DNA from: Halocafeteria seosinensis | Taxonomy: Eukaryota | Length of the DNA stretch: 44,102 bases | Reading direction: 5' to 3' | Assembly: GCA_001687465.1 (NCBI GenBank) | Contig: LVLI01000173.1 | Location: 124,001 to 168,102 of the forward strand | Shown: positions 5,241 through 44,102 of the stretch, one piece after another | Position numbering within the stretch: the first letter of the stretch is position 1 | Layout of the letters: every line of letters begins with the position of its first letter | Program-made: the position numbers and the translations under genes | The notes under the pieces: generated by a model | Told to the model about the DNA's origin: nothing | The model's database searches: none | Seen by the model: the letters and a program-made list of their open reading frames with translations, nothing else

Positions 5241-5282
<42 letters not shown>

Positions 5283-17974: not shown

Positions 17975-18824
17975 TTCAAAAGCGGTGGATCGAACTTCGA
18001 AGCTGGATATTCGATCTTGCTGTCAACGAAGGATATTCAGAATTCCAGGTTTGATGACGCCTCGACCGCAGGGTCAAATTCGGTGGTGAAACTTATCACA
18101 CCCTCTAAAATTTTAGTGATTCTTTGTAAGTGGCGTTTATGGCACCCAATGGAGCTGCTGGTTCTGAGTTGGAACCGAAGAACGTCCCTCTGGAGAAATC
18201 CAGCAGTATCTCTGACTCACAAGGATTCTACAAGAGTTGCATACGAAAGGATGTTGTCTTCTCCGGTAGAATTGTGCTATAGCTACCAGAACACACGCAA
18301 TCAAACCGTTCTGATGGAGTTCATAGGCTAGTAGAATCATAGCCCGGAAAGAATGGACCTCGCGATGCGATCATCAGGGCCTTTGTTGCGATCCCCGCCC
18401 AGTTGCTCAACCGAAATCTAGGATATCCGTCGCTTGGGTCCAGGGGAAAGAAATTTCGAAGTGTATCAAGCAATGCAGGGTGAGAAAACAGTGTATGCGG
18501 TTCGGCTATTCAATCAGTGTGTAGTGAAGAGCTTATGGGACAATTGAGGAATCATTCATACCAGTTCGCACCACCAACGACCCCAAACACTTCCTCTCAG
18601 GAGCCATATGCCACAACATGCAATGTGGTGTACATGCCATTTCAAAACTGCTCATTTCAGTGTTGGCAGCTTCTCGGTAATCATTCATCATTGCTCCCTT
18701 GCTAGTGGTGAAAAAGGAGTTCCAGGAGCTCGAGGTGGAACTTCAGGAGTTACTCAGCTGGGCAACCGAGGTACCGCTTAAGTCCTCCGGGTCAACCAAA
18801 TTCCCTGAGCAAATCATTGGTGCA

Positions 18825-26632: not shown

Positions 26633-29600
26633 TCACTTCCTTCTTGCCCTTCTCCCTTTTCTAACGCTTCTCAAGTTTACTGGTGTAGATGAGGGGGCGT
26701 TCGTGTCGCCAGGTTCCACGGGCTCTGAAGAATCATCTTTCGTATTTCCAGGGCCAGAAGGCAGCGTTTGTGCAAATTCCTTTTTAGCACCTCGTCCTTT
26801 GTTCAATCCTTTATGGGAATTGTACCGCTCGTGCTTTGCCTCTGCTGAAATCGAACTTCTTATGCTTCCTCGCTTCCTCGCATATTGTAATTGGGGTAAC
26901 CCGGCTGCCGCTGCTACTGCTTGATTCCGCTTTGTTTCTCCATCTTCATCATTGTTAACCTTTACCTCTACTAACGGCGGAGGTTCTGCCAATAGCCTTG
27001 CCTTCCACTGCCGAAGTTTGAGCTTCATTCTATCGGCTGTTCGCATATCGGATTTATCAATGGAACTTGCTAAGGCAACTTGCACAGTGCAATTTCCACT
27101 AACGGATTTTCTTCCTTCGCCTACGTTGGGTTTGTTGATTGATACGACTTTTACCTTGCTGGCCGGGGACGCATACGTTTCCAAATCCACAAACATCACC
27201 TGAGGGATCGTCGAATCATCAACCGTCGCGGCAGCCCCCAATTCCGGGTCATCCGCTGAAGTGTTTCCGGTGCTTATCTGCGAAGAACTAACGTATTCAA
27301 CTATCCTTGCTTTTAAGGTCTGTTCTTGGGCTTTACTCGTTGCTTGAGTTCGCTTCCTATCTCGGTCCATCTCCACAGACGGCAAAGCGCGACTTGAGGA
27401 GGACGAGAGCGGATTGAGATGGGCTACATTCTCCTCTCCTGTAATGTTCTTAGTCCGTACTGCAGACTGCTGTCCCTGGATCAAGGAGCCGGTGTTGCTT
27501 TTCCTAGTCCCTACACTCGAACTGCTCGAAACTGCGCTTTGTCCAATTGCCGATGGACGGGCGTCCATATCTCCAGAAGAGACAGTGAACTTAGATGTAG
27601 GGATACCTAGTTGAGTGGCATATAGTTCTGAGGGATCCCTAAACTTCTTCGAGAGAGTTTGGTTACGAGTGCGTCGGTAGCCAATGAATAGGAACAGCAG
27701 TAAAATAAATCCAGCGATCAGCGAGGGGGCTAGTATTGCCGAAACGGTAGATTGGGGGTCAGCTGCAGACCTCTCCTGTCCAAGCGAAGTACCCCCATCT
27801 GAGGATTCGTTGGCCATCGTAGAAGACACGGTAGATGTCGCCGAACTTATGCCTACGGTCGAAATAGGAGTAGCTGAGATCATTCTCTTAGTGACAGGTG
27901 TACCTGATGACGAAACCATCGCAGTAATTGTCGTTGCCGGAAAAGAGGCACTCGGTGAAATGGACGGAGATGAAGACTGGCTCGGACGCGGAACAGGCTG
28001 CTTTCCTTCGAAGGCCAATGCAGGTGGTTCATCGTACTGGTGTACAGTCCAAATATCTTCAGACCAACTCCAGAGATTATCATGGACGTAAAGCTGGCCT
28101 GTAATGTCTTCCAGATTTGGCGAGTTGCCTCTCTCAATTAAAATTGTCTGATTCGCCACCTCACAACTTGGCGTCCTCCTGTTTTCCCCTCGATACACCG
28201 AAAACTTCAGCTCCACCAAGTTAGGTTCAGTGAACTGACTGTCGAAGACGGACTTCATCGGCACTGCAACAGTTCCAAATACAGGTCCAGAATGAATATC
28301 GGGATAGCCTGATGAATAAACATTACGAACTGTAACATTTCCTCCATGGAGACCTGTACCCCACCCACAAATTCCTCCAGCGGCTTCACCAACAGTACAT
28401 CCTGTAGTATAGCTGTTCACGATAATCAGGTGTCCATATCTCCGGGCAGCCGAGCTACCAGCAATCCCACCACTAAAAAGCCCGCTGATATTCCCATTTG
28501 TATAGCACTGAGATATGTACACCGAACCGTGGTCAAACGCAGACCGTGGTCCAACTATTCCGCCACCCGAGACAGACTTCACTTCTCCTTCCGAGAACGA
28601 CTGAAATACGCGTACCAACCCTTTGTTGGCACCAGCTAGACTACCGCAAATTCCGCCTGCATTTTCCCCATGGATCGTCCCTGTTGAGGAACAACTATTC
28701 ACGTCAGCAAAGCCTCCGTCTTCCGCAGTCCGTCGACCAAATATTCCTCCACCACGAGCACCAATTGTCCCAGTTGAGGACGAATTTACAACCTGCACGT
28801 GCCCTCCTTTTCCTCCGGCATTTTCGCCGCATATACCCCCAGCGCGACGAGCTATATATCCTGTAGAGCTGGAATTCTCAATGACGAAATTGCCTGGACC
28901 GCCTTGGACAATGAACCCGCCTCCAGAAGATGTCCCTCCGTTCTTCATATGCACATTTTGCACTGTTATGGTTCCGTAGCCGTTGTTGGTGTTAGAATCC
29001 CCCGAATTCTCCAACTGGCGGATTGATAAAGACGAACGTGGAACCTCAACACTGTTACTGGTATCACCACCAATTAAACCTGAAAACTCAAACACACTCC
29101 TCATGTCCATTTCATAGTCATTTCCCTCGAATGTTTCGTTCTTCCTCAAAGATATGTAAGCCTCGTTGTCGTAAACGTCCCTCCATCGAAATGAGCACGT
29201 CAGCACAAATAGCATTTCCTCAGGGAGATGAGAAATGCATCCTTCCTTTCCCTGATGTGTTATCATTTGTCGACGGTCACCGGTCAATAGAGGTCTCCCG
29301 CAGCTAGTGTTATATTCCTCTTTCTCAAACTTTAAAATCGGTAAACTATCGCCTTCTTTATGCCAAGTATCATTCGACCATTTTGCCACTATTCCACCAG
29401 GAATATTGAGACTATCATTCACGGCAGACAGCCCGTCGGAGTTTTCTAGTTGAACAAATTTCCCAGTTATGTTTGCATCGGCAACTGGTGGCGCACAGTA
29501 TAAAGAGTTCCTAATCTGGATGGACCTACCAACACTAACACCCAAGAAGCCAACGAGCCCACCACTGCTATTGCCTTCTGTTTTTCCAGATGCGTAACTA

Positions 29601-32600
29601 TTCAAAATAAGAACCTGTCCTCCATGGCTAGCCGTTTGTGCTCCAGAGATTCCTCCTGCTTCATCACCCGAGATGATACCGGTTGTATAGCAATCTAATA
29701 TGCTGCCGACACCGTGATAAGATCCTAAGTCCCCACCACATATCCCACCGCTTCCCTGTCCCTTTATGGCTCCCGCAGAGAACGAAGCTAAAACAACGAC
29801 TGTCCCATTGTCTGAAGCCGCTCGCTTGCCTAAAATGCCACCCGCTTGGGAACCTAGAATGTCCCCTCCGTCTTCTCCACTGTAACAATTCTCAATGTCG
29901 ATACGACCTCGGTGAGCTCCAGCTTCCCTACCAACTATCCCTCCTGCTCCATCACCTGTAATGTTACCGAACGAGGTGGATTTGCGAATAACAACGTGCC
30001 CTCCATAGCTTCCACATTTTGATCCACAAATCCCTCCACCTCCCGGATAGTTGACTCCACCAATGGTCCCTCTCGAACCACAACACTCAATTACAGCAAA
30101 CATTTGATTCTTTCGAAGAATGAACCCTCCGTCCGTATTTGTGGCACCGCCGACAGTTCCAACATTCCTAATAATTGGCGCTTCGTCAAACGACGTCACG
30201 CTTTCACGATCCACCGAAAATATGCCGTTGAATTGTTTGCTGTCACTAAGATGGATTAGATAGTTGTTTCCCTCAAATATCTCATATGCTTTCAACGAAA
30301 GATACATGCTTCCGCTATAGTACCTTCCCCATTCGAAATCGCAAGTCAATTGAAACCTCCTTATAGCATGCTCATACGTTATACACTCCGATATTTCAGT
30401 TCCATCCAAGACTGAGGTCCGCAGATCTTGTCGAACTTGGGGCCACTCGTCTCGGGATAAATGAGAAAGAGATGAGTTGGCGGATTCCCCGATTTGGTAA
30501 CGCAAATATGGGAACTCACCCGCGGACCCGGCAACCCAGATGGTCTCAGACCATCTATATTCAGACGCCGCAGACGATACGTTGTACAATTGCCCTCTAA
30601 TTGAACTCAACTGATCTGAATTACCCGTCGCAGTAATGTTTTGAAACCCCTCTGAGAATAAAGGAGGCAGCGCAACCGCTAACTTGATGTTAACCGAATC
30701 AATTGCTTCCCACATGATCCCTGCGGCGCCGTCCACGATACTTCCAGAAGCATAAGCCCGCTCTATCGAGACTAAACCAGTCTTTTTGCCAAGGATACCC
30801 CCTGATTTCCAACCACTGATTTCTCCACGTGAGTACGAGTCTGCGATTGTAGTGCCAGGGTTCGTACCCGTACCCGTCTTTTGACCTCCTATCCCACCAC
30901 TCTCACTTCCAATATTACCCAGAGAAAAACATTCCGATATCTCTACGGAGCCCGATGCTTGTCCAATGATTCCGCCGCTGCCACCGTCTTCTATAGCGCC
31001 TGTCGAGTACGATTTTGAAATCGCTACCTTCCCTTTGAACGAACGACCAGCCCGCGCACCGACTATGCCTCCTGCTCCATCACCTCCTATTTTCCCAGTC
31101 GAGTAGCAGTTGGACAACACAGCTTTACTTGGTCGATAATCAAACTCACCACCAGTGGTATTACACCCAGCGATTCCACCCCCCAAACGATCTATCGTAC
31201 CGGAGGAGCTACATGAATCAACTGTAAAATTGGTTTGACCTTTACGTACGATAAACCCGCCGCCGGGAACCGTCTTGCCACCGTCAGTATGTAAGTTGAT
31301 GATGCGCGGTGCCTCACTAAACCGATGAATTCCCCAATTACTGATTGCAAACAATCCTCTGAAGGTTTTTATAGTCCAAAGATTAATGCGATGATTATTT
31401 CCATCAAAGACTTCTCCAGGAGCGAGAGTAATGTATGCCTTCCCTTGATTGTATTCTCGCCACACAAGGTTCTCGCAAACCAGTTGAAACAATAGTTTAC
31501 TACCATTGTAGTGAATGCACTCATCGTCGTTGTCTCGAAAAGAGTCAGCCATATCCCGAGCCTCATCTGCGGATACGCTTTGTTGTTGTACCAGTTCTCG
31601 AGATACCGGCGGATGCCGTGCCGACGCACACTCCAAACGAGACTTCCGATCCAACAGCGGACGTAGAGTGGGCAACTCCCGATCCTGAAATGACAGGATA
31701 GGAGGCTCGTCCATTACACACTGCCAAATAGCGCTAGACCATTGTACGTTCTCTCCAAATTGATACAGACGACTATCAATATCATCTAGATCATCTGAAT
31801 TGCCTTCGGAGACAGTAATCAGCTCCCCCGTGCTTTGGCCAGAAATGGGTGGAGAAGAGACGGAGTACTTGATTTCTACATGCTCTGCTGGCCTCCATAT
31901 GTTAAGCCCATCGGATACTGTCGCCAACATTCCACCACTTCGATCTTCTTCTTTGACCATGCCAGAAGCGTAACTCGTGTGGATCAGTAGCCTGCCTCCA
32001 TCGATTCCAGCGCGATGCCCGCAGAGACCACCGGCTTCCTTTCCCAATATATCACCACGTGAATAGGAATTGCGAATTTCCACGCTTCCACCGTTCGCTC
32101 CTGTATCAGCTCCACAGATGCCCCCACCTCCTCTACACTTAATGCTACCTTCCGAGTACGCTTGCGAAACCGTTACACTCCCGCGCTCCAGCCCGGCGTT
32201 GTCGCCGACAATACCGCCACTGGAAGTTCCTTCGATGTTTCCTAGTGAAGCCGAACGAAAGATACACACGCTTCCTTTTGATTTACCGGTATCACTTCCC
32301 GCGATACCACCTGCTTTGTAGCCTTGAACGTGGCCATTCGACATAGAGTTTGAGAGTCCTTCTAGACCATCTTCGTGAGTAGAGGACGCCAGAGGCTCCG
32401 CAGGGGCGTCACATGGAGACGAAGAACTCATACTAACGGTACCTCTTGTGGGTGACCGCATGGCACCCGAAACTATACCGACGCCATTCTCAGAGGCAAA
32501 ATCACTACCCACAATCCCTCCGGCATGATCTCCCGTGATCTCTCCGAACGAAGAGCACGTCATGATTTGAACGTGTCCTCTTGAGCCACATTTATACCCG

Positions 32601-35600
32601 CATATACCACCGGCACCCCAACCGTTAATAGCCCCAGTTGAACTACAACCGAAGACTATCGCATACTGCGTTTCTTCCCTCAGTATGAAACCACCTGTAT
32701 CGGCAACGATACCATTTACTGTTGCAACATCTCGGACCATAGGAGCCTTGTCAATGGAGTCAACCGACCGGTCGATGGCAAACAGCCCCGCAAATTCCGA
32801 CGTTGCCGACAGATTGATGACACTATGCCCACCATCAATTGTCTCATCAGCGCGCAGTGAAATATATGCATCATCAGTGTAATTTGAATCCTTCCAGTGA
32901 CAGTCCATTTTCAAAACGATTACAGCCTCAAGGTTTTCTATTTTTTCCCCCGAACACTTCCTGTATTCGAAGCACGGATCCCTTCCGGCAATTACTGAAG
33001 CCCTTCTGTCCCCTGTTCTTGCCTGAAACCAAAAGATTGGCGGCTCTGTGTTCCTATGCATCCAAACGTCACTAGGCCAACGAGATACGCCATTCAATTT
33101 GTATAGCTTTCCTTGAATCATGCTTACATTACGTGCAAGACCTACAATCCGCGGGGAGGACCCAAATCCCACAACCGGTTGAGACCATGAAACCGAGTAT
33201 TTCAGCTCAACGTCCGGGGAGCCAGTTTCCATACTACCTAGAATTCCACCACCAACTTTTTCATACATATCTCCCGAAGCATAACAATTTGTGATGGACA
33301 CGCTACCATTCCAAACCGCAGTGTAGCCTCCGAGTATACCACCTGAATAGTCTCCCTTAATATCACCTGTAGTGTAACTGTTCCGAACCCCTAGCATGCC
33401 ATCAGAGGATGCCGCGAACGAACCACTGATGCCGCCACTCCTATCACCGATAGCATAGCCAATTGTATAGCACTGCTCAATTTGTGCTGTGCCATTCTTC
33501 GCCGCAAACGAACCACATACTCCTCCAGCACCACCACCTTTTATCCTTCCACTGGAAGATGACCGGCTTATTGCAGCATAGCCTCCCCAGGCGCTTGGTT
33601 CCGAACCAGTTATGCCACCAGCTCCGTCCCCTTCAATTGCTCCAGTGGAAATGGAGTCAAGAATTTCGATATGTCCTCCACTAGATCCACACCTACGACC
33701 ACATAGTCCACCGCTGTTAGTGCCTGCACTAGTTCCCGAAGAGCTGCATGATTCCATTCTGAAAAATCTCTGCCAGCTTCGCACGAGAAACGACCCATTA
33801 TCCCCCGTTTGTCCATCTCTTGTATGGACGTTTCGAATAATCGGTGCTTCTCTGACAGACGAAACGCTGCTATTTACAACAAATATCCCTTCGAATCCAT
33901 CAACACATTGGAGAGCAATTTCGTAACCCCCGCCATCGAACGCCTCACCAGCATTCAGCGTAATGAATGAGCTCGGATCGAAATAATCACTCCAGAGGAA
34001 GCTGCAAGTTTGCTCAAACGTGTATGTAGATATATTGTACATTAAACAAGGCACAATACCCTCATCGTTTACGAATGAACGAATGTCGCTCCGGTAATGA
34101 GTTCTCGACAAACTGTTTGGTTGTGGGTCACCACTGGAGACATTATGCTTCTGAAACTGTAGCTCAGGAAACCTGTCGTTTGTAGGAACCATCCAAATAT
34201 TATCACTCCATCGTTGAAGACCGAATGAGTGCAGCAAAGATCCTTGAATGGCATTCAATGAATCTGCGTTCCCTATCGAGCAGGAGATGTAAGCAGCATT
34301 ATTTCCAATAAGTTTTTCTGGGGATGGCGCGGAAAACCTAATGTATATCTGCGGATGAGATATCTCTATAGGACTATCTGTGCGTTCCAATCTCCGGGCT
34401 GGCGGATCTTGTCTTTCCCCACTCGAATACACATTTTCGATCTGTATAATGCCACCGGACATACCCGGATTTGCACCGCAAATTCCTCCTACGTCTCCCC
34501 ACAGTAAATCTCCGGTACTATAACAGTCTTTTATGCTCACAGTTCCTCCGTTACTTCCACACGAACTCCCGCATATCCCACCTCCGTCGGCTTGTATCAT
34601 CCCTGTGGAATAACATTCCCAAACAAATACTAACCCCTCGTCGGAGGCGGCCAGTTTTCCCAAAATGCCGCCACTTCCTGGGCATCCAATATTGCCCCTT
34701 GAAAAGGAACGAATTACTTCTAACCTCCCTCGATTGGATGCTGCTTTCTGGCCAACTATTCCACCGGATCCTTTACCGTTGACCTGTCCATGTGAAAATG
34801 AATTGGTAATCTTGACGCGTCCCCCGCCATGTCCGCAGTTTGCTCCACAGATCCCACCTCCTCCATCAGTTATTTCACCGGTAGACGAGCAAGACAAAAT
34901 TTTCCCAAACGTTTGCCCATTACGCAGAATATAGCCAGCTTGAGGTTCGATACTGCCGTGCTCCAGGTGGACGTTGCGTATTAGTGGGGCTTCCTCGAAA
35001 GACGTCACATGTTGACCCACCTCAAAGAGTCCTTTAAATGCATCAGTACGCTCCAGATCAATAATGTAGTCATTTCCCTCGAAAGTCTCATTCAATGTCA
35101 ATTGAATGTAATCATCGCTGGTGTACCCGAATGCACTCCAAGAGAAATCGCACTGGAGCAAGAACATCTTTTCACCAGGATCGAAAACAATGCAGGAAGA
35201 GTTGTTCGCAAGTACGACTTCGCGTAAGTCTCGGGAGCATACAGACTGGTATGAACTCGTCAAAACAGCAAGAAAACAGATATGAATAGACGATGCCGGG
35301 TGTTTGAAGAGCGGCTTCCTTTGCCTCTGACGTTTAGTCGTCGCCTTTATGAGATCTGACAAGAGTATGGTGACAAGAGCAGACAAAAATAGGACACGTT
35401 TCCAGCCACTCGGGTTTTTATATCCACCCGCATCATGCTCCAGTGAGCCCTCTTGCTCTACTTTACTGACGTCGTTTCTTCCGGCAGGATCAATAGTGCT
35501 AACACAGGTGCTTCGTCTCGTAGCACTTGTCCTAAGTGAATCGTATGTGAGGCAAGACGCGATGCTCTCATGTTTTCTGAATAACTGCCTGTCGTGCGGG

Positions 35601-36010
35601 GGGCTGCGCTCGTTATATTCTTCTCCCAAACTCCAGCTCGGCTTCTCTTGCTCATCAACACCCCCACGGGCAATCTTCTGCTCATTCCCGATCGGAGTAA
35701 CTTTAGCAGCCACAGTGGAACTTCGAGTAGTTGCTTTATCACCTTGAACCAAGGTGCATTGGTGATGCCCCACTAACGGACAATACCCCCTCAAGGTGGA
35801 GGAGTCAGTGCCAGAATTCCACTTCTGTGCCACTTCATTTAGTAGTACAGCTTGTCCGTCGTGACGATGGAGCGCACCGCATTCCTCATGATGAGCTGTA
35901 CGTTTGCTACTGCATTGTTCCATAGTGGAGAGAACTCTGCTTGAATACTGCCGTTTAGCACAGTCGCCACAGGCACAGTGGGGTTCCTGTCCCGCTGGCA
36001 TCACCTGCAT
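26633..36010 (-). CDS. Giant six-module GLUG-like type-I membrane protein, copy A (~3125 aa from first ATG)
   Basis: Uninterrupted 9.4-kb ORF. The ORF track start at 36067 is TTG and the first ATG is at 36010. Modules start near 35235 (RDLREV), 34090 (SDIRSF), 33012 (GDRRAS), 31560 (RDMADS), 30432 (QDLRTS) and 29282 (GDRRQM). An S/T stalk, TM ILAPSLIAGFILLLFLFIGY (~27678-27743) and a ~345-aa tail follow. Confidence 0.92.
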   Translation of the reverse strand: MQVMPAGQEPHCACGDCAKRQYSSRVLSTMEQCSSKRTAHHEECGALHRHDGQAVLLNEVAQKWNSGTDSSTLRGYCPLVGHHQCTLVQGDKATTRSSTVAAKVTPIGNEQKIARGGVDEQEKPSWSLGEEYNERSPPHDRQLFRKHESIASCLTYDSLRTSATRRSTCVSTIDPAGRNDVSKVEQEGSLEHDAGGYKNPSGWKRVLFLSALVTILLSDLIKATTKRQRQRKPLFKHPASSIHICFLAVLTSSYQSVCSRDLREVVLANNSSCIVFDPGEKMFLLQCDFSWSAFGYTSDDYIQLTLNETFEGNDYIIDLERTDAFKGLFEVGQHVTSFEEAPLIRNVHLEHGSIEPQAGYILRNGQTFGKILSCSSTGEITDGGGGICGANCGHGGGRVKITNSFSHGQVNGKGSGGIVGQKAASNRGRLEVIRSFSRGNIGCPGSGGILGKLAASDEGLVFVWECYSTGMIQADGGGICGSSCGSNGGTVSIKDCYSTGDLLWGDVGGICGANPGMSGGIIQIENVYSSGERQDPPARRLERTDSPIEISHPQIYIRFSAPSPEKLIGNNAAYISCSIGNADSLNAIQGSLLHSFGLQRWSDNIWMVPTNDRFPELQFQKHNVSSGDPQPNSLSRTHYRSDIRSFVNDEGIVPCLMYNISTYTFEQTCSFLWSDYFDPSSFITLNAGEAFDGGGYEIALQCVDGFEGIFVVNSSVSSVREAPIIRNVHTRDGQTGDNGSFLVRSWQRFFRMESCSSSGTSAGTNSGGLCGRRCGSSGGHIEILDSISTGAIEGDGAGGITGSEPSAWGGYAAISRSSSSGRIKGGGAGGVCGSFAAKNGTAQIEQCYTIGYAIGDRSGGISGSFAASSDGMLGVRNSYTTGDIKGDYSGGILGGYTAVWNGSVSITNCYASGDMYEKVGGGILGSMETGSPDVELKYSVSWSQPVVGFGSSPRIVGLARNVSMIQGKLYKLNGVSRWPSDVWMHRNTEPPIFWFQARTGDRRASVIAGRDPCFEYRKCSGEKIENLEAVIVLKMDCHWKDSNYTDDAYISLRADETIDGGHSVINLSATSEFAGLFAIDRSVDSIDKAPMVRDVATVNGIVADTGGFILREETQYAIVFGCSSTGAINGWGAGGICGYKCGSRGHVQIMTCSSFGEITGDHAGGIVGSDFASENGVGIVSGAMRSPTRGTVSMSSSSPCDAPAEPLASSTHEDGLEGLSNSMSNGHVQGYKAGGIAGSDTGKSKGSVCIFRSASLGNIEGTSSGGIVGDNAGLERGSVTVSQAYSEGSIKCRGGGGICGADTGANGGSVEIRNSYSRGDILGKEAGGLCGHRAGIDGGRLLIHTSYASGMVKEEDRSGGMLATVSDGLNIWRPAEHVEIKYSVSSPPISGQSTGELITVSEGNSDDLDDIDSRLYQFGENVQWSSAIWQCVMDEPPILSFQDRELPTLRPLLDRKSRLECASARHPPVSRELVQQQSVSADEARDMADSFRDNDDECIHYNGSKLLFQLVCENLVWREYNQGKAYITLAPGEVFDGNNHRINLWTIKTFRGLFAISNWGIHRFSEAPRIINLHTDGGKTVPGGGFIVRKGQTNFTVDSCSSSGTIDRLGGGIAGCNTTGGEFDYRPSKAVLSNCYSTGKIGGDGAGGIVGARAGRSFKGKVAISKSYSTGAIEDGGSGGIIGQASGSVEISECFSLGNIGSESGGIGGQKTGTGTNPGTTIADSYSRGEISGWKSGGILGKKTGLVSIERAYASGSIVDGAAGIMWEAIDSVNIKLAVALPPLFSEGFQNITATGNSDQLSSIRGQLYNVSSAASEYRWSETIWVAGSAGEFPYLRYQIGESANSSLSHLSRDEWPQVRQDLRTSVLDGTEISECITYEHAIRRFQLTCDFEWGRYYSGSMYLSLKAYEIFEGNNYLIHLSDSKQFNGIFSVDRESVTSFDEAPIIRNVGTVGGATNTDGGFILRKNQMFAVIECCGSRGTIGGVNYPGGGGICGSKCGSYGGHVVIRKSTSFGNITGDGAGGIVGREAGAHRGRIDIENCYSGEDGGDILGSQAGGILGKRAASDNGTVVVLASFSAGAIKGQGSGGICGGDLGSYHGVGSILDCYTTGIISGDEAGGISGAQTASHGGQVLILNSYASGKTEGNSSGGLVGFLGVSVGRSIQIRNSLYCAPPVADANITGKFVQLENSDGLSAVNDSLNIPGGIVAKWSNDTWHKEGDSLPILKFEKEEYNTSCGRPLLTGDRRQMITHQGKEGCISHLPEEMLFVLTCSFRWRDVYDNEAYISLRKNETFEGNDYEMDMRSVFEFSGLIGGDTSNSVEVPRSSLSIRQLENSGDSNTNNGYGTITVQNVHMKNGGTSSGGGFIVQGGPGNFVIENSSSTGYIARRAGGICGENAGGKGGHVQVVNSSSTGTIGARGGGIFGRRTAEDGGFADVNSCSSTGTIHGENAGGICGSLAGANKGLVRVFQSFSEGEVKSVSGGGIVGPRSAFDHGSVYISQCYTNGNISGLFSGGIAGSSAARRYGHLIIVNSYTTGCTVGEAAGGICGWGTGLHGGNVTVRNVYSSGYPDIHSGPVFGTVAVPMKSVFDSQFTEPNLVELKFSVYRGENRRTPSCEVANQTILIERGNSPNLEDITGQLYVHDNLWSWSEDIWTVHQYDEPPALAFEGKQPVPRPSQSSSPSISPSASFPATTITAMVSSSGTPVTKRMISATPISTVGISSATSTVSSTMANESSDGGTSLGQERSAADPQSTVSAILAPSLIAGFILLLFLFIGYRRTRNQTLSKKFRDPSELYATQLGIPTSKFTVSSGDMDARPSAIGQSAVSSSSSVGTRKSNTGSLIQGQQSAVRTKNITGEENVAHLNPLSSSSSRALPSVEMDRDRKRTQATSKAQEQTLKARIVEYVSSSQISTGNTSADDPELGAAATVDDSTIPQVMFVDLETYASPASKVKVVSINKPNVGEGRKSVSGNCTVQVALASSIDKSDMRTADRMKLKLRQWKARLLAEPPPLVEVKVNNDEDGETKRNQAVAAAAGLPQLQYARKRGSIRSSISAEAKHERYNSHKGLNKGRGAKKEFAQTLPSGPGNTKDDSSEPVEPGDTNAPSSTPVNLRSVRKGRRARRK

Positions 36011-36701
36011 TTCGATACACACAACGTTATGCACTCTATTCCAAAAAGTCTCCGTTCGTGTAACCAATAAACTATCCTATGGCAAAAATATAGCCTATAT
36101 ACTGTAGCCCAGGGACTTCATGTACGCCACGAATGAAAAAAGTTGTTGAAGGTCGCATGCCTGCTTGCGATCAAGACCGTGTGAAACATGGAGACGCGAG
36201 ATATCTTCTTAAAGAAAAAGGATGCAAAGGAAAACAGGTTTCTTCAGCTATGTCTACCAGTAGGTAAAACATGAGACATGCAAGGAGAAGGCCGGCCCAA
36301 GGGAGAAAGGAAGTTTTAACGGCTCGCAAAGTGGAGCCGTTAAGCGGCTCGGCAAACCACAACAACAGCACCAGCATGCTGCCATAGATGGCAACCAACC
36401 ACCACTACTGGAAGTTCGGTTTTGTGTTCTAGATATTCTGATCATACGCTCAAAACTTCGCGCGACCAAGATACGGGCACTCTTGGGTACCGACAGCGCG
36501 GCGGAGAGGGAGTCACACGGGCAAAAGGCTCACCAGAAGCATATACAGTATAGGTACAATAACCACGGTACAAAGCACAAGATCGTACAAGGCAGGTGCG
36601 TGCGTACGTCATCGCTGGTTTGCCACTCTAAAGAATTTCAGCAAAAAAAAGATGCTTCAACCGATTCCCCAACGGTAGGTCACGAACGACTCACCAACAC
36701 C

Positions 36702-39700
36702 CTACTTCACCTGAGTCCGTCGGCTACCTTGTCGCATGTCTCTCAAGCTTAGCCTTGCCGATTTCTTCAGGGAGTTTGAAGCAGTACTGCCGAATTTCAA
36801 AGCACCATCGTCCGTCTCCGACACGTCGTACTCCGAAATAGCAGAACCAGACGGAAGTGCTTGTCCAAATTCTTTCTTTGCAACTTTTTTCCTTTTAAAT
36901 CCCCTACTGGAATTGTAATGCTGGTTTGTAGCGTCAGCGGAGAATGGATTTCTTCCCTTTTTCGTCCCATACTGACACTGGGTAACCGGTTGTGCCCGCT
37001 TTTTCTCTTCTCGATCAGAGTTATCCTCCTTTTCCATTTCTATCTCAACCAAAGGCGGTGGTTCCGCCAATACCCTCGCCTTCCACTGCCGGATTCTAAG
37101 CTTCATTGTATCCGCTCTTCGCATGTCTGGATTCTCGATCGAACTTGCCAATGCAACTTGAATAGTCCCCCCTGAAGATTTGTGGCCTTGTCTTACGTTT
37201 GGTGTGTTGACAGATACAACCTTTACGGTGCTTGACTCGGGTCCGCGAGATGCCAAATCAACAAACTTCACCTGAGGTATAGCAGAATCATCCACAGCCG
37301 TGGGAGATCCAATTTCCGCGTCTGTTGTGGATGCTTTCCCGGTTAGAATGTTAGAGGGTTTCAGACGTTTAATAACCCTGGCGCTCTGCTTCTCCTCTTG
37401 GGGTTTGGCTGTTGTTTGAGTTTGCTGCTTGTCTCGATCCATACTAGGGGACTGGACTGCTCGACTCGGAACGGATGCGAGCGGATTGGCATGCGCTATA
37501 CTCCCTTCCTCGAGCACAACATCCTTGCGTTGGACGCCAGACTGTTGCACATGGTTTACGCGGCTACTCTTACTTTGCCAAGCCATCAGACTGAAGCTAC
37601 TCGAAACGGCATCGCCTACAGTCACTGGTACTGCTCCCATATCGCCTGAAGAAATACTGAATTTGTTAGCCGGGATACCCAAATGGACAGCGTATAATTC
37701 CGCAGGGTCTCTGACATTCTTAGCAATAATCTGGTTGCGGGTGCGTCGGTAGATAATGAAAAAAAGAAGCACCAATGCTAGCCCTATGATAAAGCCTGGA
37801 GGTAGAACTGTGGAAACTGGGACGGGTTCACCAACTGTAGGCCACCCTTCTCGTATAGAGCCAGTATCATCGGAGGTCGTTCCGTTTCTCCCAGTCCTAG
37901 ATGGACTTCCAGTTGTAATAATGGACGGTGTACTTGATTGGGAAACCGTAACAGTTCCCGTTGCCTTTACAGTAGATGAGGGGCTCGGGGAAATGGATGG
38001 AGAATTGCTTGAAGCTGGAGCAGTTTTCTTTCCTTCGAAGGCTAATGAAGGTGGTCTATCGTGTCGGTATATCATCCAAACATCTTCAGACCAACGTTGC
38101 AAATTCGCGAACACGTAAAGTCGACCAACGATGTCGCCGACAGTTGGAGAGTTCCCCTTCTGCACTAAAACAGTCTGATTAGTCGCTTCAAAACTTGGTG
38201 CCCTCCCATTGTTTCCTCGATACACCGAAAACTTCAGCTCCACCAAGTTAGGTTCAGTGAACTGACTGTCAAAGACGGACTTCATCGGCACTGCAACACT
38301 TCCAAATACAGGTCCAGAATGAATATCGGGATAGCCTGATGAATAAACATTACGAACTGTAATATTTCCCCCATGGAGACCTGTACCCCACCCGCAAATT
38401 CCTCCAGCGGCTTCACCAACAATACCTCCTGTAGTATAGCTGTTCACGATAATCAGGTGTCCATATCTCCGGGCAGCCGAGCTACCAGCAATCCCACCAC
38501 TGAAAAGCCCGCGGATATTCCCATTTGTATAGCACTGAGATATGTACACCGAACCATGGTCAAACGCAGGCCGTGGTCCAACTATCCCGCCACCCGAGAC
38601 AGACTTCACTTCTCCTTCCGAGAACGACTGAAACACGCGTACCAACCCTCTGTTGGCACCAGCTAGACTACCGCAAATTCCGCCTGAATTTTCCCCATGG
38701 ATCGTCCCAGTTGAGGAACAACTATTCACGTCAGCAATGCCTCCATTTTCTGCAGCCCGTCGACCAAATATTCCTCCGCCACGAGCACCAATGGTCCCAG
38801 TTGAGGATGAATTTACAACCTGCACATGCCCTCCATTTCCTCCGGTATTTTCGCCGCATATACCCCCAGCGCGACGAGCTATATATCCTGTAGAGCTAGA
38901 ATTCTCGATGACGAAATTGCCTGGACCGCCTTGGACAATGAACCCGCCTCCAGAAGATGTCCCTCCGTTCTTCATATGCACATTCTGCACTGTTATGGTT
39001 CCGCAATCGCTTTTGGTGTTAGAATCCCCCGAATTCTCCAATTGGCGGATTGATAAAGATAAACGTGGAAACTCAACACTGTTACTGGTATCACCACCAA
39101 TTAACCCTAGAAACTCAAACACACTCCTCATGTCAATTTCATAGTCATTTCCCTCGAATGTTTCGTTCTTCCTCAAAGATATATAAGCCTCGTTGTCGTA
39201 AACGTCCCTCCATCGAAATGAGCACGTCAGCACAAATAGCATTTCCTCAGGGAGATAAGAAATGCATCCTTCGTTTCCCTGACGTATTATCATTTGTCGA
39301 CGGTCACCGGTCAATAGAGGTCTCCCGCAGCTAGTGTTATATTCCTCTTTCTCAAACATTAGAATCGGTAAACTATAGCCTGCTTTATGCCAAGTATCAT
39401 TCGACCATTTTGCCACTATTCCGCCAGGAATATTGAGACTATCATTCACTGCAGACAGCTCGTCGGAGTTTTCTAGTTGAACAAATTTCCCAGTCATGTT
39501 TGCATCGGCAACTGGTGGCGCACAGTATAAAGAGTTCTTAATCTGGATGGACCTACCAACACTAACACCCAAGAAGCCAACGAGCCCACCACTGCTAGTG
39601 CCTTCTGTTTTTCCAGATGCGTAACTATTCAAAATAAGAACCTGTCCTCCATGGCTAGCCGTTTGTGCTCCAGATATTCCTCCTGCTTCATCACCTGAGA

Positions 39701-42700
39701 TGATACCGGTTGTATAGCAATCTAATATGCTGCCGACACCGTGATAGGATCCTAAGTCCCCACCACATATCCCACCGCTTCCCTGTCCCTTTATGGACCC
39801 CGCAGAGAACGAGGCTAAAACAACGACTGTCCCATTGTCTGAAGCCGCTCGCTTGCCTAAAATGCCACCCGCTTGGGAACCTAGAATGTCCCCTTCGTCT
39901 TCTCCACTGTAACAATTCTCAATGTCGATACGACCTCGGTGAGCTCCAGCTTCCCTACCAGCTATCCCTCCTGCTCCATCACCTGTAATGTTACCGAACG
40001 AGGTGGATTTCCGAATAACAACGTGCCCTCCATAGCTTCCACATTTTGATCCACAAATCCCTCCACCTCCCGGATAGTTGACTCCACCAATGGTCCCTCT
40101 CGAACCACAACACTCAATTACAGCAAACGTTTGATTCTTTCGAAGAATGAACCCTCCGTCCGTATTTGTGGCACCGCCGACAGTTCCAACATTCCTAATA
40201 ATTGGCGCTTCGTCAAACGAGGTCACGCTTTGACGGTCCACCGAAAATATGCCGTTGAATTGCTTGCTGTCACTAAGATGGATTAGATAGTTGTTTCCCT
40301 CAAATACCTCATATGCTTTCAACGAGAGATACATGCTTCCGCTATAGTACCTTCCCCATTCGAAATCGCAAGTCAATTGAAACCTCCTTATAGCATGCTC
40401 ATACGTTATACACCCCGATATTTCAGTTCCATCCAAGACTGAGGTCCGCAGATCTTGTCGAACTTGGGGCCACTCGTCTCGGGATAAATGAGGAAGAGAT
40501 GAGTTGGCGGATTCCCCGATTTGGTAACGCAAATATGGGAACTCACCCGCGGGCCCGGCCACCCAGATCGTCTCAGACCATCTATGTTCAGACGCTGCAG
40601 ACGATACGCTGTACAATTGCCCTCTAATTGAACTCAACTGATCTGAATTACCCGTCGCAGTAACGTTTTGAAACCCCTCTGAGAATAAAGGAGGCAGCGC
40701 AACCGCTAACTTGATATTGACCGAATCAATTGCTTCCCACATGATTCCTGCGGCGCCGTCAACGATACTTCCAGAAGCATAAGCCCGCTCTACCGAGACT
40801 AAACCAGTCTTCTTGCTAAGGATACCCCCTGATTTCCAACCACTGATTTCTCCACGTGAGTACGAGTCTGCGATTGTAGTGCCAGGGTTCGTACCCGTAC
40901 CCGTCTTTTGACCTCCTATCCCACCACTCTCACTTCCAATATTACCCACAGAAAAACATTCCGATATCTCTACGGAGCCCGATGCTTGTCCAATGATTCC
41001 GCCGCTGCCACCGTCTTCTATAGCGCCTGTCGAGTACGATTTTGAAATCGCTACCTTCCCTTTGAACGAACGACCAGCCCGGGCACCCACTATGCCTCCT
41101 GCTCCATCACCTCCTATTTTCCCAGTCGAGTAGCAGTTGGACAACACAGCTTTACTTGGTCGATAATCAAACTCACCACCAGCGGTATTACGCCCAGCGA
41201 TTCCACCCCCCAAACGATCTATCGTACCGGAGGAGCTACATGAATCAACTGTAAAATTGGTTTGACCTTTACGTACGATAAACCCGCCCCCGGGAACCGT
41301 CTTGCCACCGTCAGTATGTAAGTTGATGATGCGCGGTGCCTCACTAAACCGATGAATTCCCCAATTACTGATTGCAAACAATCCTCTGAAGGTTTTTATA
41401 GTCCAAAGATTAATGCGATGATTATTTCCATCAAAGACTTCTCCAGGAGCGAGAGTAATGTATGCCTTCCCTTGGTTATATTTTCGCCACACAAGGTTCT
41501 CGCAAACCAGTTGAAACAATAGTTTACTACCATTGTAGTGAATGCACTCATCGTCGTTGTCTCGAAAAGAGTCAGCCATATCCCGAGCCTCATCTGCGGA
41601 TATGCTTTGTTGTTGGACCAGTTCTCGGGGTACCGGCGGATGCCGTGCCGACGCACACTCCAAACGAGATTTCCGATCAAACAGCTGACGAAGAGTGGGC
41701 AACTCCCGATCCTGAAAAGACAGGATAGGAGGCTCGTCCATTACACACTGCCAAATAGCGCTAGACCATTGTACGTTCTCTCCAAATTGATACAGACAAC
41801 TATCAATATCATCTAGATCATCTGAATTGCCTTCGGAGACAGTAATCAGTTCCCCCGTGCTTTGGCCAGAAATGGGTGGAGAAGAGACGGAGTACTTAAT
41901 TTCTACATGCTCTGCTGGCCTCCATTTGTTAAGCCCATCGGATACTGTCGCCAACATTCCACCACTTCGATCTTCTTCTTTGATCATGCCAGAAGCGTAA
42001 CTCGTGTGAATCAGTAGCCTGCCTCCATCGATTCCAGCGCGATGCCCGCAGAGACCACCGGCTTCCTTCCCCAATATATCACCACGTGAATAGGAATTGC
42101 GAATTTCCACGCTTCCACCGTTCGCTCCTGTATCAGCTCCACAGATGCCCCCACCTCCTCTACACTTAATGCTACCTTCCGAGTACGCTTGCGAAACCGT
42201 TACACTCCCGCGCTCCAGCCCGGCGTTGTCGCCGACAATACCGCCACTGTAAGTTCCTTCGATGTTTCCTAGTGAAGCCGAACGGAAGATACACACGTTC
42301 CCTTTTGATTTACCGGTATCACTTCCCGCGATACCACCTGCTTTGTAGCCTTGAACGTGGCCATTCGACATAGAGTTTGAGAGTCCTTCTAGACCATCTT
42401 CGTGAGTAGAGGACGCCAGAGGCTCCGCAGGGCCGTCACATGGAGACGAAGAACTCATACTAACGGTACCTCTTGTGGGTGACCGCATGGCACCCGAAAC
42501 TATACCGACGCCATTCTCAGAGGCAAAATCGCTACCCACAATCCCTCCGGCATTATCTCCCGTGATCTCTCCGAACGAAGAGCACGTCGTGATTTGAACG
42601 TGTCCTTTTGAGCCACATTTGTACCCGCATATACCACCGGCACCCCAACCGTTAATAGCCCCAGTTGAACTACAACCAAAGACTATCGCATACTGCGTTT

Positions 42701-44102
42701 CTTCCCTCAGTATGAAACCACCTGTATCGGCAACGATACCATTTACTGTTGCAACATCTCGGACCATAGGAGCCTTTTCAATGGAGTCAACCGACCGGTC
42801 GATGGCAAACAGCCCCGCAAATTCCGACGGTGCCGACAGATCGATGACACGATGCCCACCATCAATTGTCTCATAAGCGCGCAGTGAAATATATGCATCA
42901 TCAGTGTAATTTGAATCCTTCCAGTGACAGTCCATTTTCAAAACGATTACAGCCTCAAGGTTTTCTATTTTTTCCCTCGAAAACTTCCTGTATTCGAAGC
43001 ACGGATCCCTTCCGGCAATCACTGAAGCCCTTCTGTCCCCTGTTCTTGCCTGAAACCAAAAGATTGGCGGCTCTGTGTTCCTATGCATCCAAACGTCACT
43101 ACGCCAACGAGATACGCCATTCAATTTGTATAGCTCTCCTTGAATCATGCTTACATTACGTGCAGGACCTACAATCCGCGGGGAGGACCCAAATCCCACA
43201 ACCGGTTGAGACCATGAAACCGAGTATCTCAGTTCAACGTCCGGGGAGCCAGTTTCCATACTGCCTAGAATTCCACCACCAACTTTTTCATACATATCTC
43301 CCGAAGCATAACAATTTGTGACGGACACGCTACCATTCCGAACCGCAGTGTAGCCTCCGAGTATACCACCTGAATAGTCTCCCTTAATATCACCTGTAGT
43401 GTAACTGTTCCGAACCCCTAGCATGCCATCCGAGGATGCCGCGAACGAACCACTGATGCCGCCGCTCCTATCACCGATAGCATAGCCAATTGTATGGCAC
43501 TGCTCAATTTGTGCTGTGCCATTCTTAGCCACAAACGAACCGCATACTCCTCCAGCACCACGACCTTTTATCCTTCCACTGGAAGATGACCGGTTTATTG
43601 CAGCATAGCCTCCCCAGGCGCTTGGTTCCGAACCAGTTATGCCACCAGCTCCGTCCCCTTCAATTGCTCCAGTGGAAATTGAGTCAAGAATTTCGATATG
43701 TCCTCCACGAGATCCACACCCACGACCACATAGTCCACCGCTGTTAGTGCCTGCAATAGTTCCCGAAGAGCTGCATGATTCCATTCTGAAAAATCTCTGC
43801 CAGCTTCGCACGAGAAACGACCCATTATCCCCCGTTTGTCCATCTCTTGTATGGACCTTTCGAATAATCGGTGCTTCTCTGACAGACGAAACGCTGCTAT
43901 TTACAACAAATATCCCTTTGAATCCATCAACACATTGGAGAGCAATTTCATAACCCCCACCATCGAACGCCTCACCAGCATTCAGCGTAATGAATGAGCT
44001 CGGATCGAAATAATCACTCCAGAGGAAGCTGCAAGTTTGCTCAAACGTGTATGTAGATATATTGTACATTAAACAAGGCACAATACCCTCATCGTTTACG
44101 AA
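36702..44102 (-). CDS. Giant GLUG-like type-I membrane protein, copy B (5' end beyond the window; modules 2-6, stalk, TM and tail visible)
   Basis: ORF is open to the window edge and colinear with copy A at a constant 10,027-nt offset. TM VLPPGFIIGLALVLLFFIIY (~37750-37810). Confidence 0.92.
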   Translation of the reverse strand, partial: FVNDEGIVPCLMYNISTYTFEQTCSFLWSDYFDPSSFITLNAGEAFDGGGYEIALQCVDGFKGIFVVNSSVSSVREAPIIRKVHTRDGQTGDNGSFLVRSWQRFFRMESCSSSGTIAGTNSGGLCGRGCGSRGGHIEILDSISTGAIEGDGAGGITGSEPSAWGGYAAINRSSSSGRIKGRGAGGVCGSFVAKNGTAQIEQCHTIGYAIGDRSGGISGSFAASSDGMLGVRNSYTTGDIKGDYSGGILGGYTAVRNGSVSVTNCYASGDMYEKVGGGILGSMETGSPDVELRYSVSWSQPVVGFGSSPRIVGPARNVSMIQGELYKLNGVSRWRSDVWMHRNTEPPIFWFQARTGDRRASVIAGRDPCFEYRKFSREKIENLEAVIVLKMDCHWKDSNYTDDAYISLRAYETIDGGHRVIDLSAPSEFAGLFAIDRSVDSIEKAPMVRDVATVNGIVADTGGFILREETQYAIVFGCSSTGAINGWGAGGICGYKCGSKGHVQITTCSSFGEITGDNAGGIVGSDFASENGVGIVSGAMRSPTRGTVSMSSSSPCDGPAEPLASSTHEDGLEGLSNSMSNGHVQGYKAGGIAGSDTGKSKGNVCIFRSASLGNIEGTYSGGIVGDNAGLERGSVTVSQAYSEGSIKCRGGGGICGADTGANGGSVEIRNSYSRGDILGKEAGGLCGHRAGIDGGRLLIHTSYASGMIKEEDRSGGMLATVSDGLNKWRPAEHVEIKYSVSSPPISGQSTGELITVSEGNSDDLDDIDSCLYQFGENVQWSSAIWQCVMDEPPILSFQDRELPTLRQLFDRKSRLECASARHPPVPRELVQQQSISADEARDMADSFRDNDDECIHYNGSKLLFQLVCENLVWRKYNQGKAYITLAPGEVFDGNNHRINLWTIKTFRGLFAISNWGIHRFSEAPRIINLHTDGGKTVPGGGFIVRKGQTNFTVDSCSSSGTIDRLGGGIAGRNTAGGEFDYRPSKAVLSNCYSTGKIGGDGAGGIVGARAGRSFKGKVAISKSYSTGAIEDGGSGGIIGQASGSVEISECFSVGNIGSESGGIGGQKTGTGTNPGTTIADSYSRGEISGWKSGGILSKKTGLVSVERAYASGSIVDGAAGIMWEAIDSVNIKLAVALPPLFSEGFQNVTATGNSDQLSSIRGQLYSVSSAASEHRWSETIWVAGPAGEFPYLRYQIGESANSSLPHLSRDEWPQVRQDLRTSVLDGTEISGCITYEHAIRRFQLTCDFEWGRYYSGSMYLSLKAYEVFEGNNYLIHLSDSKQFNGIFSVDRQSVTSFDEAPIIRNVGTVGGATNTDGGFILRKNQTFAVIECCGSRGTIGGVNYPGGGGICGSKCGSYGGHVVIRKSTSFGNITGDGAGGIAGREAGAHRGRIDIENCYSGEDEGDILGSQAGGILGKRAASDNGTVVVLASFSAGSIKGQGSGGICGGDLGSYHGVGSILDCYTTGIISGDEAGGISGAQTASHGGQVLILNSYASGKTEGTSSGGLVGFLGVSVGRSIQIKNSLYCAPPVADANMTGKFVQLENSDELSAVNDSLNIPGGIVAKWSNDTWHKAGYSLPILMFEKEEYNTSCGRPLLTGDRRQMIIRQGNEGCISYLPEEMLFVLTCSFRWRDVYDNEAYISLRKNETFEGNDYEIDMRSVFEFLGLIGGDTSNSVEFPRLSLSIRQLENSGDSNTKSDCGTITVQNVHMKNGGTSSGGGFIVQGGPGNFVIENSSSTGYIARRAGGICGENTGGNGGHVQVVNSSSTGTIGARGGGIFGRRAAENGGIADVNSCSSTGTIHGENSGGICGSLAGANRGLVRVFQSFSEGEVKSVSGGGIVGPRPAFDHGSVYISQCYTNGNIRGLFSGGIAGSSAARRYGHLIIVNSYTTGGIVGEAAGGICGWGTGLHGGNITVRNVYSSGYPDIHSGPVFGSVAVPMKSVFDSQFTEPNLVELKFSVYRGNNGRAPSFEATNQTVLVQKGNSPTVGDIVGRLYVFANLQRWSEDVWMIYRHDRPPSLAFEGKKTAPASSNSPSISPSPSSTVKATGTVTVSQSSTPSIITTGSPSRTGRNGTTSDDTGSIREGWPTVGEPVPVSTVLPPGFIIGLALVLLFFIIYRRTRNQIIAKNVRDPAELYAVHLGIPANKFSISSGDMGAVPVTVGDAVSSSFSLMAWQSKSSRVNHVQQSGVQRKDVVLEEGSIAHANPLASVPSRAVQSPSMDRDKQQTQTTAKPQEEKQSARVIKRLKPSNILTGKASTTDAEIGSPTAVDDSAIPQVKFVDLASRGPESSTVKVVSVNTPNVRQGHKSSGGTIQVALASSIENPDMRRADTMKLRIRQWKARVLAEPPPLVEIEMEKEDNSDREEKKRAQPVTQCQYGTKKGRNPFSADATNQHYNSSRGFKRKKVAKKEFGQALPSGSAISEYDVSETDDGALKFGSTASNSLKKSARLSLRDMRQGSRRTQVK
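38216..44102. repeat. Near-identical direct repeat of 28189-34075 (>=5.9 kb, ~97% by spot checks)
   Basis: Offset is 10,027 at both ends (28191/38218 and 34021/44048). Sampled 60-nt lines show 1-4 substitutions each. Confidence 0.95.

What the first reader, a model, noticed from the sequence alone, without database searches (positions are those of the whole stretch)
28140..28260. Sharp identity breakpoint between the tandem giants: homogenised ectodomain, divergent stalk/TM/tail
Seen: copies A and B are ~97% identical with no net indel from 28189/38216 to the window end. Immediately after VELKFSVYRG, which lies inside the C-cap of module 6, they drop to distant-paralogue similarity (ENRRTPSCEVANQTILIERGN vs NNGRAPSFEATNQTVLVQKGN) and stay divergent through the stalk and tail. 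Inference: gene conversion or unequal crossover placed the same ectodomain on two old tails. This is ectodomain swapping, and it parallels the LRR fusion.
Basis: partly seen in the sequence, partly recalled or inferred. Interest (0 to 1): 0.7.

Follow-up and report, generated by a model that had tools for sequence, protein, structure and literature searches.

The report
Shared ectodomain on three receptor tails
Two neighbouring genes for giant cell-surface proteins of a single-celled eukaryote are 97% identical across their outer part but only about half identical as proteins from one sharp point onward, likely because gene conversion copied the outer part between old duplicates (a third copy appears to share it); the process is familiar, the protein family seems undescribed.

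Summary
The breakpoint is real. Copies A and B align without gaps at offset 10027: 158 mismatches in 5886 bases above 28188, 61 in 198 below. Synonymous divergence jumps at the same place (dS 0.054 to 0.93-1.5). Contigs of public runs carry both junctions, so it is not an assembly seam. They also show a third gene (C) that follows A to 28002 and then has its own stalk, and a likely 5' boundary near 35,040-35,200, so the shared block is about 7 kb. A and B tails are homologous sister paralogues (about 50% identical, same motifs). This is therefore partial homogenisation of old duplicates, likely by long-tract gene conversion, not a swap onto unrelated tails. The B-tail segment has half the DNA depth of its flank, which suggests a live deletion or hybrid allele. 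The modules fold as a predicted beta-helix. The tail holds a small conserved domain without a database match, found elsewhere on unrelated ectodomains. No opposing signalling motifs were found, so 'paired receptors' is an analogy only. Known process, apparently undescribed family; moderate interest.

The parts
26633..36067 (-). Copy A: single 3144-codon open frame; six beta-helix modules, Ser/Thr stalk, one transmembrane helix, 347-residue tail. True start codon not determined.
36702..44102 (-). Copy B: 2466 open codons, runs off the window; modules 2-6, stalk, transmembrane helix, 348-residue tail
28187..28193 (-). A/B breakpoint in A (maximum-likelihood 28188), after residue 2627
   Evidence: bridged by an X2 contig 28064-30586 with 0 differences
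38214..38220 (-). A/B breakpoint in B (38215)
   Evidence: X1 and X4 contigs run from the B tail through 34 B-only letters onto the shared block (table 5c)
28188..35043 (-). Shared (homogenised) block in A, about 7 kb; directly comparable with B only up to 34075, upper end inferred from contigs
38215..44102 (-). Shared block in B, 97.3% identical to A without indels; predicted to end near 45,070-45,230, beyond the window
28004..28187 (-). Unshared C-terminal cap of module 6 in A (56% amino acid identity to B, dS 0.93, in register); shared with copy C
28002..28093 (-). Second breakpoint: a third gene (C, not in the window) follows A to 28002 and continues into a different Pro/Thr-rich stalk
   Evidence: loose end in 4 of 4 runs, translated, absent from the window
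35043..35204 (-). Likely 5' boundary of the shared block, inside the start of module 1
   Evidence: loose end at 35043, dense differences 35098-35133, A-only contig from 35204
35204..38214 (.). Segment (A 5' end, spacer, B tail) on one X1 contig at depth 62, against 116.6 for the 16.5-kb contig that carries the A tail; inferred to be on one homologue only
27683..27739 (-). Predicted transmembrane helix of A, no charged residue
37752..37808 (-). Predicted transmembrane helix of B, no charged residue
26939..27226 (-). Conserved cytoplasmic domain of A (ends in WKARLLAEPPPLV); model confidence 80-98 over tail residues 151-240; present in B and in the gene at 62-5512
29434..29434 (.). Weaker inner changepoint: 4.4% A/B differences below, 2.2% above
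   Evidence: permutation p 0.004

Best explanation
A and B are old sister duplicates of a giant single-pass membrane protein gene whose roughly 7-kb ectodomain-coding block was likely overwritten, in register, by long-tract gene conversion (or a double exchange) among at least three copies, while the last cap, stalk, membrane helix and tail kept their old divergence. Shown: the step, its synonymous signal, the register, both junctions in contigs, a third stalk, sister tails. Inferred: conversion as the mechanism; tracts likely stop where a conserved block meets a fast-changing one, so the borders persist without a dedicated machine; the near-identical blocks would now also allow unequal crossover, which likely explains why the B-tail segment has half depth (a deletion allele making a hybrid gene on one homologue). 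The proteins are predicted to be glycan- or surface-binding receptors (beta-helix modules on a mucin-like stalk) with one family type of tail; no difference in output between tails is shown.
For: Step at 28188 in all codon positions; dS 0.054 (ectodomain, 1963 codons) vs 0.93 (cap, 61 codons) and 1.55 (tail, 298 codons); dN/dS 0.23-0.36 on both sides. No indel across the junction and no repeat at it beyond short chance-level matches nearby. X2 contig 28064-30586 has A's letter at 82 of 82 A/B differences and 124 A-only bases; X1 and X4 contigs carry the B junction. Third stalk at 28002 in 4 of 4 runs; 6 of the 40 listed contig alleles are neither A nor B, 34 are B (194 found, 40 shown). Different 5' versions above about 35,043 give a second border inside the gene. 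A and B tails are sisters, 98/100. The A/B border follows a conserved strand and precedes a poorly conserved stretch (32% vs 19% then 5% identity per 10 residues over 17 other modules); the A/C border is the cap/stalk edge; a related set of six transcripts steps from 94-100% to 52-53% right after the conserved tail domain. X1 depths fit 2:1:2 units of about 58 for A:B:C at four places: tails 116.6, 62, about 113 (back-calculated); 9-base deletion 116 of 289; site 28529 118.5 vs 189.7; site 28519 120.
Against: No excess of long identical runs between A and B (p 0.65 and 0.43), so no patchwork of recent short tracts; the pattern fits one or two long events. No rise in G+C at fourfold sites in the shared block (0.41 vs 0.39-0.44 in the tails). 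The 5' border was seen only in A coordinates from contigs, and B's own 5' end is outside the window. No outgroup orthologues, so donor and direction are unknown. The tool warns that contig depth is no copy number; all four runs come from one study and X1 may be the window's source. The six related transcripts could be assembler chimeras. A chain of single unequal crossovers can give a similar mosaic.
Confidence: 0.72

Rival explanations
1. Successive single unequal crossovers in a tandem array (Lepore- or FCGR2C-type hybrids; examples recalled) made the mosaic, without non-reciprocal conversion.
For: Near-even 2-4% divergence over 5.9 kb and no short recent tracts; half depth on the B-tail segment; X2 contigs match A from 28064 to about 32,280 (0 of 82, then 4 differences where A/B differ at 39) and then differ about as much as B does (7 vs 8, 9 vs 9), as a hybrid transcript would.
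Against: A single crossover would carry the 5' end and spacer along, but A's 5' end differs from the other versions; two borders lie inside the gene. Several crossovers are needed.
Confidence: 0.17
2. Selection maintains a paired-receptor system: one ligand-binding ectodomain is kept identical while the tails are kept different because they send different signals. This adds a function on top of conversion.
For: Both A/B and A/C borders fall at the ectodomain/stalk edge, as in animal paired receptors (PMC3210942, Discussion); three tails are under contigs of X2-X4, of which X2 has a spliced intron; tails under purifying selection (dN/dS 0.23).
Against: A and B tails keep the same family motifs; no ITIM, ITAM or NPxY pattern and no charged membrane residue; in a related transcript set the step lies inside the tail, after membrane helix and conserved domain, so borders are not tied to the ectodomain.
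Confidence: 0.15
3. Assembly artefact: two haplotypes or collapsed repeats were joined wrongly.
For: No long read was available; phase across the 5' half of A is unverified, and X2 contigs leave the A type above about 32.3 kb. B tail has half depth.
Against: Both junctions lie in short-read contigs of more than one sample; one contig joins B tail, spacer and the A 5' end (35204-38244), so B's tail does lie upstream of such a gene; the A tail is at full depth, so B is not its allele; both frames are open and differences are enriched at third positions (79 of 158). Alleles would not be 30-50% apart in the tail only.
Confidence: 0.04
4. No recombination: a whole-gene duplication with strong constraint on the ectodomain and relaxed tails.
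For: Stalks and tails are low-complexity and change fast in this family.
Against: Synonymous divergence rises 17-fold at one codon, and dN/dS is about the same on both sides.
Confidence: 0.02

Closest known systems
Partial homogenisation ('merohomogenization') of paired leukocyte receptors: KLRC, KLRI, KLRB, Ly49, PIR (PMC3210942; abstract and first part of Discussion read); Siglec-11/16 (PMC5701461; abstract read)
   Same: Neighbouring paralogues with near-identical extracellular parts and old, different stalk and cytoplasmic parts, ascribed to gene conversion plus recombination.
   Different: Here a unicellular eukaryote; one intronless 7-kb block with borders inside the reading frame, not at exons; three tails of one family type; no opposing signalling motifs; ligand unknown.
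Regional gene conversion in clustered protocadherins (PMC1852091; passages read)
   Same: Large single exons encoding six extracellular repeats, regionally homogenised among tandem paralogues with a sharp border.
   Different: In fugu the 3' repeats are homogenised and G+C at third positions is raised; here nearly the whole ectodomain is shared, the tail is not, and G+C is not raised.
Hybrid genes from unequal crossover (haemoglobin Lepore, glycophorin hybrids, FCGR2C; recalled, not looked up)
   Same: In-register exchange between tandem paralogues, copy-number polymorphism, ectodomain of one gene on the tail of another.
   Different: Two borders inside the gene; the hybrid allele here is inferred from contig depth and alleles only.
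GLUG-motif / Peptidase_M26_N-like beta-helix proteins; IgA1-protease beta-helix, polysaccharide lyases, tailspikes, PfbA adhesin
   Same: Module 6 is modelled with pLDDT 90.7 as a beta-solenoid; Z 22.8, rmsd 3.1, 265 aligned to 7uvk and Z 19-22 to lyases, tailspikes and PfbA; Atlas features 0.93-0.94 to GLUG (35-62% of members) and M26_N clusters.
   Different: No Pfam hit; 7-16% identity to the solved structures; six capped modules on a eukaryotic single-pass protein with its own tail.

Membership tests
Interlocus gene conversion / partial homogenisation | Sharp step in synonymous as well as non-synonymous divergence | tested here: met
   dS 0.054 vs 0.93-1.55, changepoint 28188-28193
Interlocus gene conversion / partial homogenisation | Flanks homologous and in register at the border | tested here: met
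   no indel from 27990 to 34075; cap 70% identical; sister tails
Interlocus gene conversion / partial homogenisation | A second border, so that old sequence lies on both sides of the tract | tested here: inconclusive
   different 5' versions above about 35,043 in contigs, but B's 5' end is outside the window
Interlocus gene conversion / partial homogenisation | Clustered identical fragments (Sawyer-type signal of repeated short tracts) | tested here: not met
   longest run 185, p 0.65; sum of squares p 0.43; one inner changepoint p 0.004
Interlocus gene conversion / partial homogenisation | Raised G+C at silent sites in the tract (supporting sign of frequent conversion) | tested here: not met
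   0.41 vs 0.39-0.44
Interlocus gene conversion / partial homogenisation | Across species, ectodomains group by species and tails by orthologue | not testable with these tools
   no genome held, no related locus found
Paired opposing receptors (Ly49, PIR, KLRC, Siglec-11/16) | Near-identical extracellular domain on different cytoplasmic parts | tested here: met
   95.7% vs about 50% amino acid identity
Paired opposing receptors (Ly49, PIR, KLRC, Siglec-11/16) | Opposite signalling: ITIM in one, ITAM or charged membrane residue in the other | tested here: not met
   no ITIM, ITAM or NPxY pattern; uncharged membrane helices; same family motifs in both tails
Paired opposing receptors (Ly49, PIR, KLRC, Siglec-11/16) | Both expressed in the same cells | tested here: inconclusive
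   contigs of X2-X4 cover all three tail types; only X2 shows a spliced intron; run kind not on record; one study
Paired opposing receptors (Ly49, PIR, KLRC, Siglec-11/16) | Shared ligand | not testable with these tools
   ligand unknown
GLUG / M26_N-like beta-helix proteins | Profile match to PF07581 or PF05342 | tested here: not met
   no Pfam family for A or B at E 0.01 or for module 6 at E 0.1; Atlas feature hits only
GLUG / M26_N-like beta-helix proteins | Parallel beta-helix fold | tested here: met
   predicted model, pLDDT 90.7; Z 20-23 to solved beta-helices
GLUG / M26_N-like beta-helix proteins | Attached metalloprotease or lyase active site | not tested
   no catalytic-site analysis was run
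Unequal-crossover hybrid gene (Lepore type) | Copy-number difference between haplotypes and a hybrid gene with one internal switch | tested here: inconclusive
   depth 62 vs 116.6; X2 allele switch near 32.3-32.5 kb; contigs only

The most novel reading that the evidence does not exclude
A free-living protist runs a paired-receptor-like system: one six-module beta-helix sensor is kept identical across three genes by ongoing recombination and is read out through three different versions of a new cytoplasmic domain, with hybrid and deletion alleles segregating in a single strain.
Probability: 0.15. Interest if true: 0.75.

Novelty: new member of a known kind. Interest (0 to 1): 0.42.

Why it matters
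The process is textbook, but the case is unusually clean and large: a 7-kb intronless block, borders mapped to a few bases, three tails, and signs that exchange is still going on. It also exposes an apparently undescribed, expanded receptor family (64 representatives at 50% identity) whose conserved tail domain is used with beta-helix, ephrin-receptor-like, glycine-rich and PA14 ectodomains. If the three tails act differently, the 'same sensor, different output' design of animal immune receptors would have a unicellular counterpart. If not, the locus is a good test of the neutral idea that conversion borders get trapped where conserved sequence meets variable sequence.

Tried and rejected
No whole genome is held. 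No RNA holder listed among the four runs; their kind was inferred for X2 only, from one spliced intron. One scan of metagenome contigs with the tail alignment: 35 pattern matches, none confirmed. Pfam: nothing for A, B, module 6 or the tail. Foldseek on module 6: no match at E 0.001 or better; the wide structural search did find beta-helices. Tail model: one chain at Z 2.3 among 48,161 and no usable Atlas hit; neither shows the fold is new. No repeat or hairpin at the breakpoint. Sawyer-type run test and G+C test negative. No window protein exceeds about 45% identity over 150 or more residues to any of 199 fetched proteins, so copy C was not found and the organism was not identified. Earlier-findings look-ups by place and by sequence were empty. 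Parts of the A 5' end without cover in X2-X4 were not used as evidence. Contig depths in X2-X4 were not used to rank expression. Literature: no paper held all terms; searches listed nothing on this family; PMC5447177 has no occurrence of GLUG, tandem, gene conversion, diploid or leucine-rich (term search only). No supplements were read; those of the bioRxiv genome preprint are closed and may bear on ploidy.

Full report
Setting. The window is eukaryotic: a transporter gene at 18.8-20.6 kb has a GT-AG intron that one public run shows spliced. It holds four genes of one family: 62-5512 (-), 21463-23892 (+), A 26633-36067 (-) and B 36702 to the window end (-). No genome is held. The named relatives of the tail that I checked (5 of 6 hits; 11 of the 20 representatives looked up, the other 9 being unnamed ENA contigs) are EukProt records with the prefix GECG01. 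I recall that prefix as the transcriptome of the bicosoecid stramenopile Halocafeteria seosinensis; no call confirms it (one search found nothing). The window's organism is not identified; no fetched protein is above about 45% identical to a window protein over 150 or more residues.

Observation. A and B align without a gap at offset 10027. From 28190 to 34075 there are 158 mismatches in 5886 bases; the changepoint is 28188 (interval 28188-28193), right after VELKFSVYRG. The 198 bases on either side have 61 and 5 mismatches (Fisher p 2e-15). dS is 0.054 in the ectodomain, 0.93 in the remaining cap, saturated in stalk and membrane region and 1.55 in the tail; dN/dS is 0.36, 0.32 and 0.23. So the step is one of age, not of constraint. 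The cap stays gap-free and 70% identical below the step, which points to a homology-directed exchange; no repeat marks the site.

Is it an assembly seam? Four coded runs hold the stretch (one study, at most three samples; X1 may be the window's source). An X2 contig covers 28064-30586 with no difference from A, which means A's letter at 82 of 82 A/B differences plus 124 A-only bases. X1 and X4 contigs run from B's tail through 34 B-only letters onto 28188. One X1 contig joins B's tail, the 635-base spacer and A's 5' end. Both junctions and the tandem order are thus in short-read data. Phase across the upper half of A is not proven.

(1) A third gene, C. In 4 of 4 runs a contig follows A down to 28002 and then continues with letters that translate to a different stalk (HVDPTPTPK) absent from the window. 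Of the 40 contig alleles shown (194 found), 34 equal B and 6 equal neither copy. (2) A likely 5' border: a loose end at 35043, dense differences at 35098-35133 in two other versions, and an A-only contig from 35204. The shared block is then about 7 kb, from the start of module 1 to the last strand of module 6, and should end near 45,070-45,230 in B. (3) Depth in X1: A tail 116.6, B tail and A 5' end 62, C piece about 113 (back-calculated from a bin sum); a 9-base deletion is at 116 of 289, and site 28529 splits 118.5 to 189.7. Five units of about 58 (A 2, B 1, C 2) fit. The tool warns that contig depth is no copy number, so this is inference. If the organism is diploid, as reported for H. seosinensis and Cafeteria burkhardae (bioRxiv 10.64898/2026.06.25.734631, parts 1-2 of 3 read), the simplest reading is that one homologue lost B tail + A 5' end by unequal crossover, leaving a hybrid gene. 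(4) In X2 the contigs match A up to about 32,280 (0 of 82; 4 where A/B differ at 39) and then differ by 7 and 9 where A/B differ by 8 and 9. That fits a hybrid transcript, but also a mis-phased A or low-depth contigs of B or C.

History. Among 28 tails, A and B are sisters (98/100; midpoint root, long branches noted for five rows). The genes were therefore old duplicates whose ectodomains were later made alike. Identical runs are not longer than chance (p 0.65, 0.43), one inner changepoint exists at 29434 (p 0.004), and silent G+C is not raised: one or a few long events, not constant short conversion. Borders sit where conserved sequence meets variable sequence: after the conserved strand for A/B, at the cap/stalk edge for A/C, and, in six related GECG01 transcripts, right after the conserved tail domain, where pairs of unlike C-terminal type drop from 802-848 of 849 identical residues to 72-73 of 137-138 (assembler chimeras possible).

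The protein. A has six capped modules, a stalk of about 40% Ser/Thr, one uncharged membrane helix and a 347-residue basic tail. Module 6 models as a beta-solenoid (pLDDT 90.7) resembling the IgA1-protease beta-helix, polysaccharide lyases, tailspikes and the adhesin PfbA (Z 19-23, 7-16% identity); Atlas features point to GLUG and M26_N clusters but Pfam gives no hit. Binding to glycans or prey surfaces is a guess from fold. The tail profile finds 64 representatives. Of 27 long ones scanned, two carry ephrin-receptor-like repeats, one a TNFR-like repeat only, one a glycine-rich domain and one PA14; 22 have no Pfam family, many of them with these modules. The neighbour at 62-5512 has LRR pieces upstream (splicing not tested). 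So real ectodomain replacement exists in the family, on a deeper time scale than this breakpoint. The tail has a compact predicted domain of about 90 residues (confidence 80-98, whole-model mean 64.6). A and B both keep all family motifs and lack ITIM, ITAM and NPxY patterns.

Comparison. The pattern matches 'merohomogenization' of paired leukocyte receptors (PMC3210942, abstract and first part of Discussion; PMC5701461, abstract) and regional conversion in protocadherins (PMC1852091, passages). It works like these at the DNA level. It fails the paired-receptor test on opposing signals. I found no paper on this family or on such a case in a free-living protist (open-access library only). Notes from other genomes in this scan describe similar conversion borders as ordinary (unchecked).

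Verdict. Observation confirmed, interpretation partly supported. New member of a known kind. Interest 0.42; the paired-receptor reading has probability 0.15 and would merit 0.75.

Noticed in passing
window 26939-27226, 37040-37300, 360-620 (all - strand): Conserved cytoplasmic domain (K-x-RVVS ... LKLRQWKAKLLAEPPPLVE) shared by three window genes and 64 database representatives, without Pfam, Atlas or structure match; occurs with several unrelated ectodomains.
   Followed up: partly
window 5500-10100 (-): Short open frames with LRR_8 matches upstream of the module gene at 62-5512; likely intron-rich LRR exons joined to an intronless module/tail block; splicing not tested.
   Followed up: partly
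window 21463-23892 (+): One-module family member with a Ser/Thr stalk but no membrane helix or tail in frame; possibly secreted or truncated. Contigs laid on it are mostly other paralogues.
   Followed up: no
window 12845-17974 (-): 1709-residue gene with two related halves (ARM-like part, coiled coil, a conserved block) and a PH-like end by eye; only a weak Arm_3 hit.
   Followed up: no
window 18800-20619 (-): Major facilitator transporter gene with introns; 19297-19372 is spliced out in X2.
   Followed up: partly
window 21221: The window has two more bases than the X1 contig here; possible assembly error or strain difference.
   Followed up: no
window 35341-35449: Contigs of X1 (depth 87.8) and X4 skip 107 bases in the region before module 1, so another copy's 5' end differs by a non-triplet length; A's first ~280 codons may not all be coding.
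   Followed up: no
window 37042-37093, 38076-38101, 26979-27019: Loose ends show further paralogues with the same tail motif in this genome beyond A, B, C and the gene at 62-5512.
   Followed up: no
P0183, P0195-P0199: Six related transcripts with near-identical ectodomain, stalk, membrane helix and tail domain but two C-terminal types about 52% alike: a second mosaic step in the family.
   Followed up: yes
window 11382-11527 and 12257-12402: A 150-base direct repeat at 81% identity, not examined.
   Followed up: no
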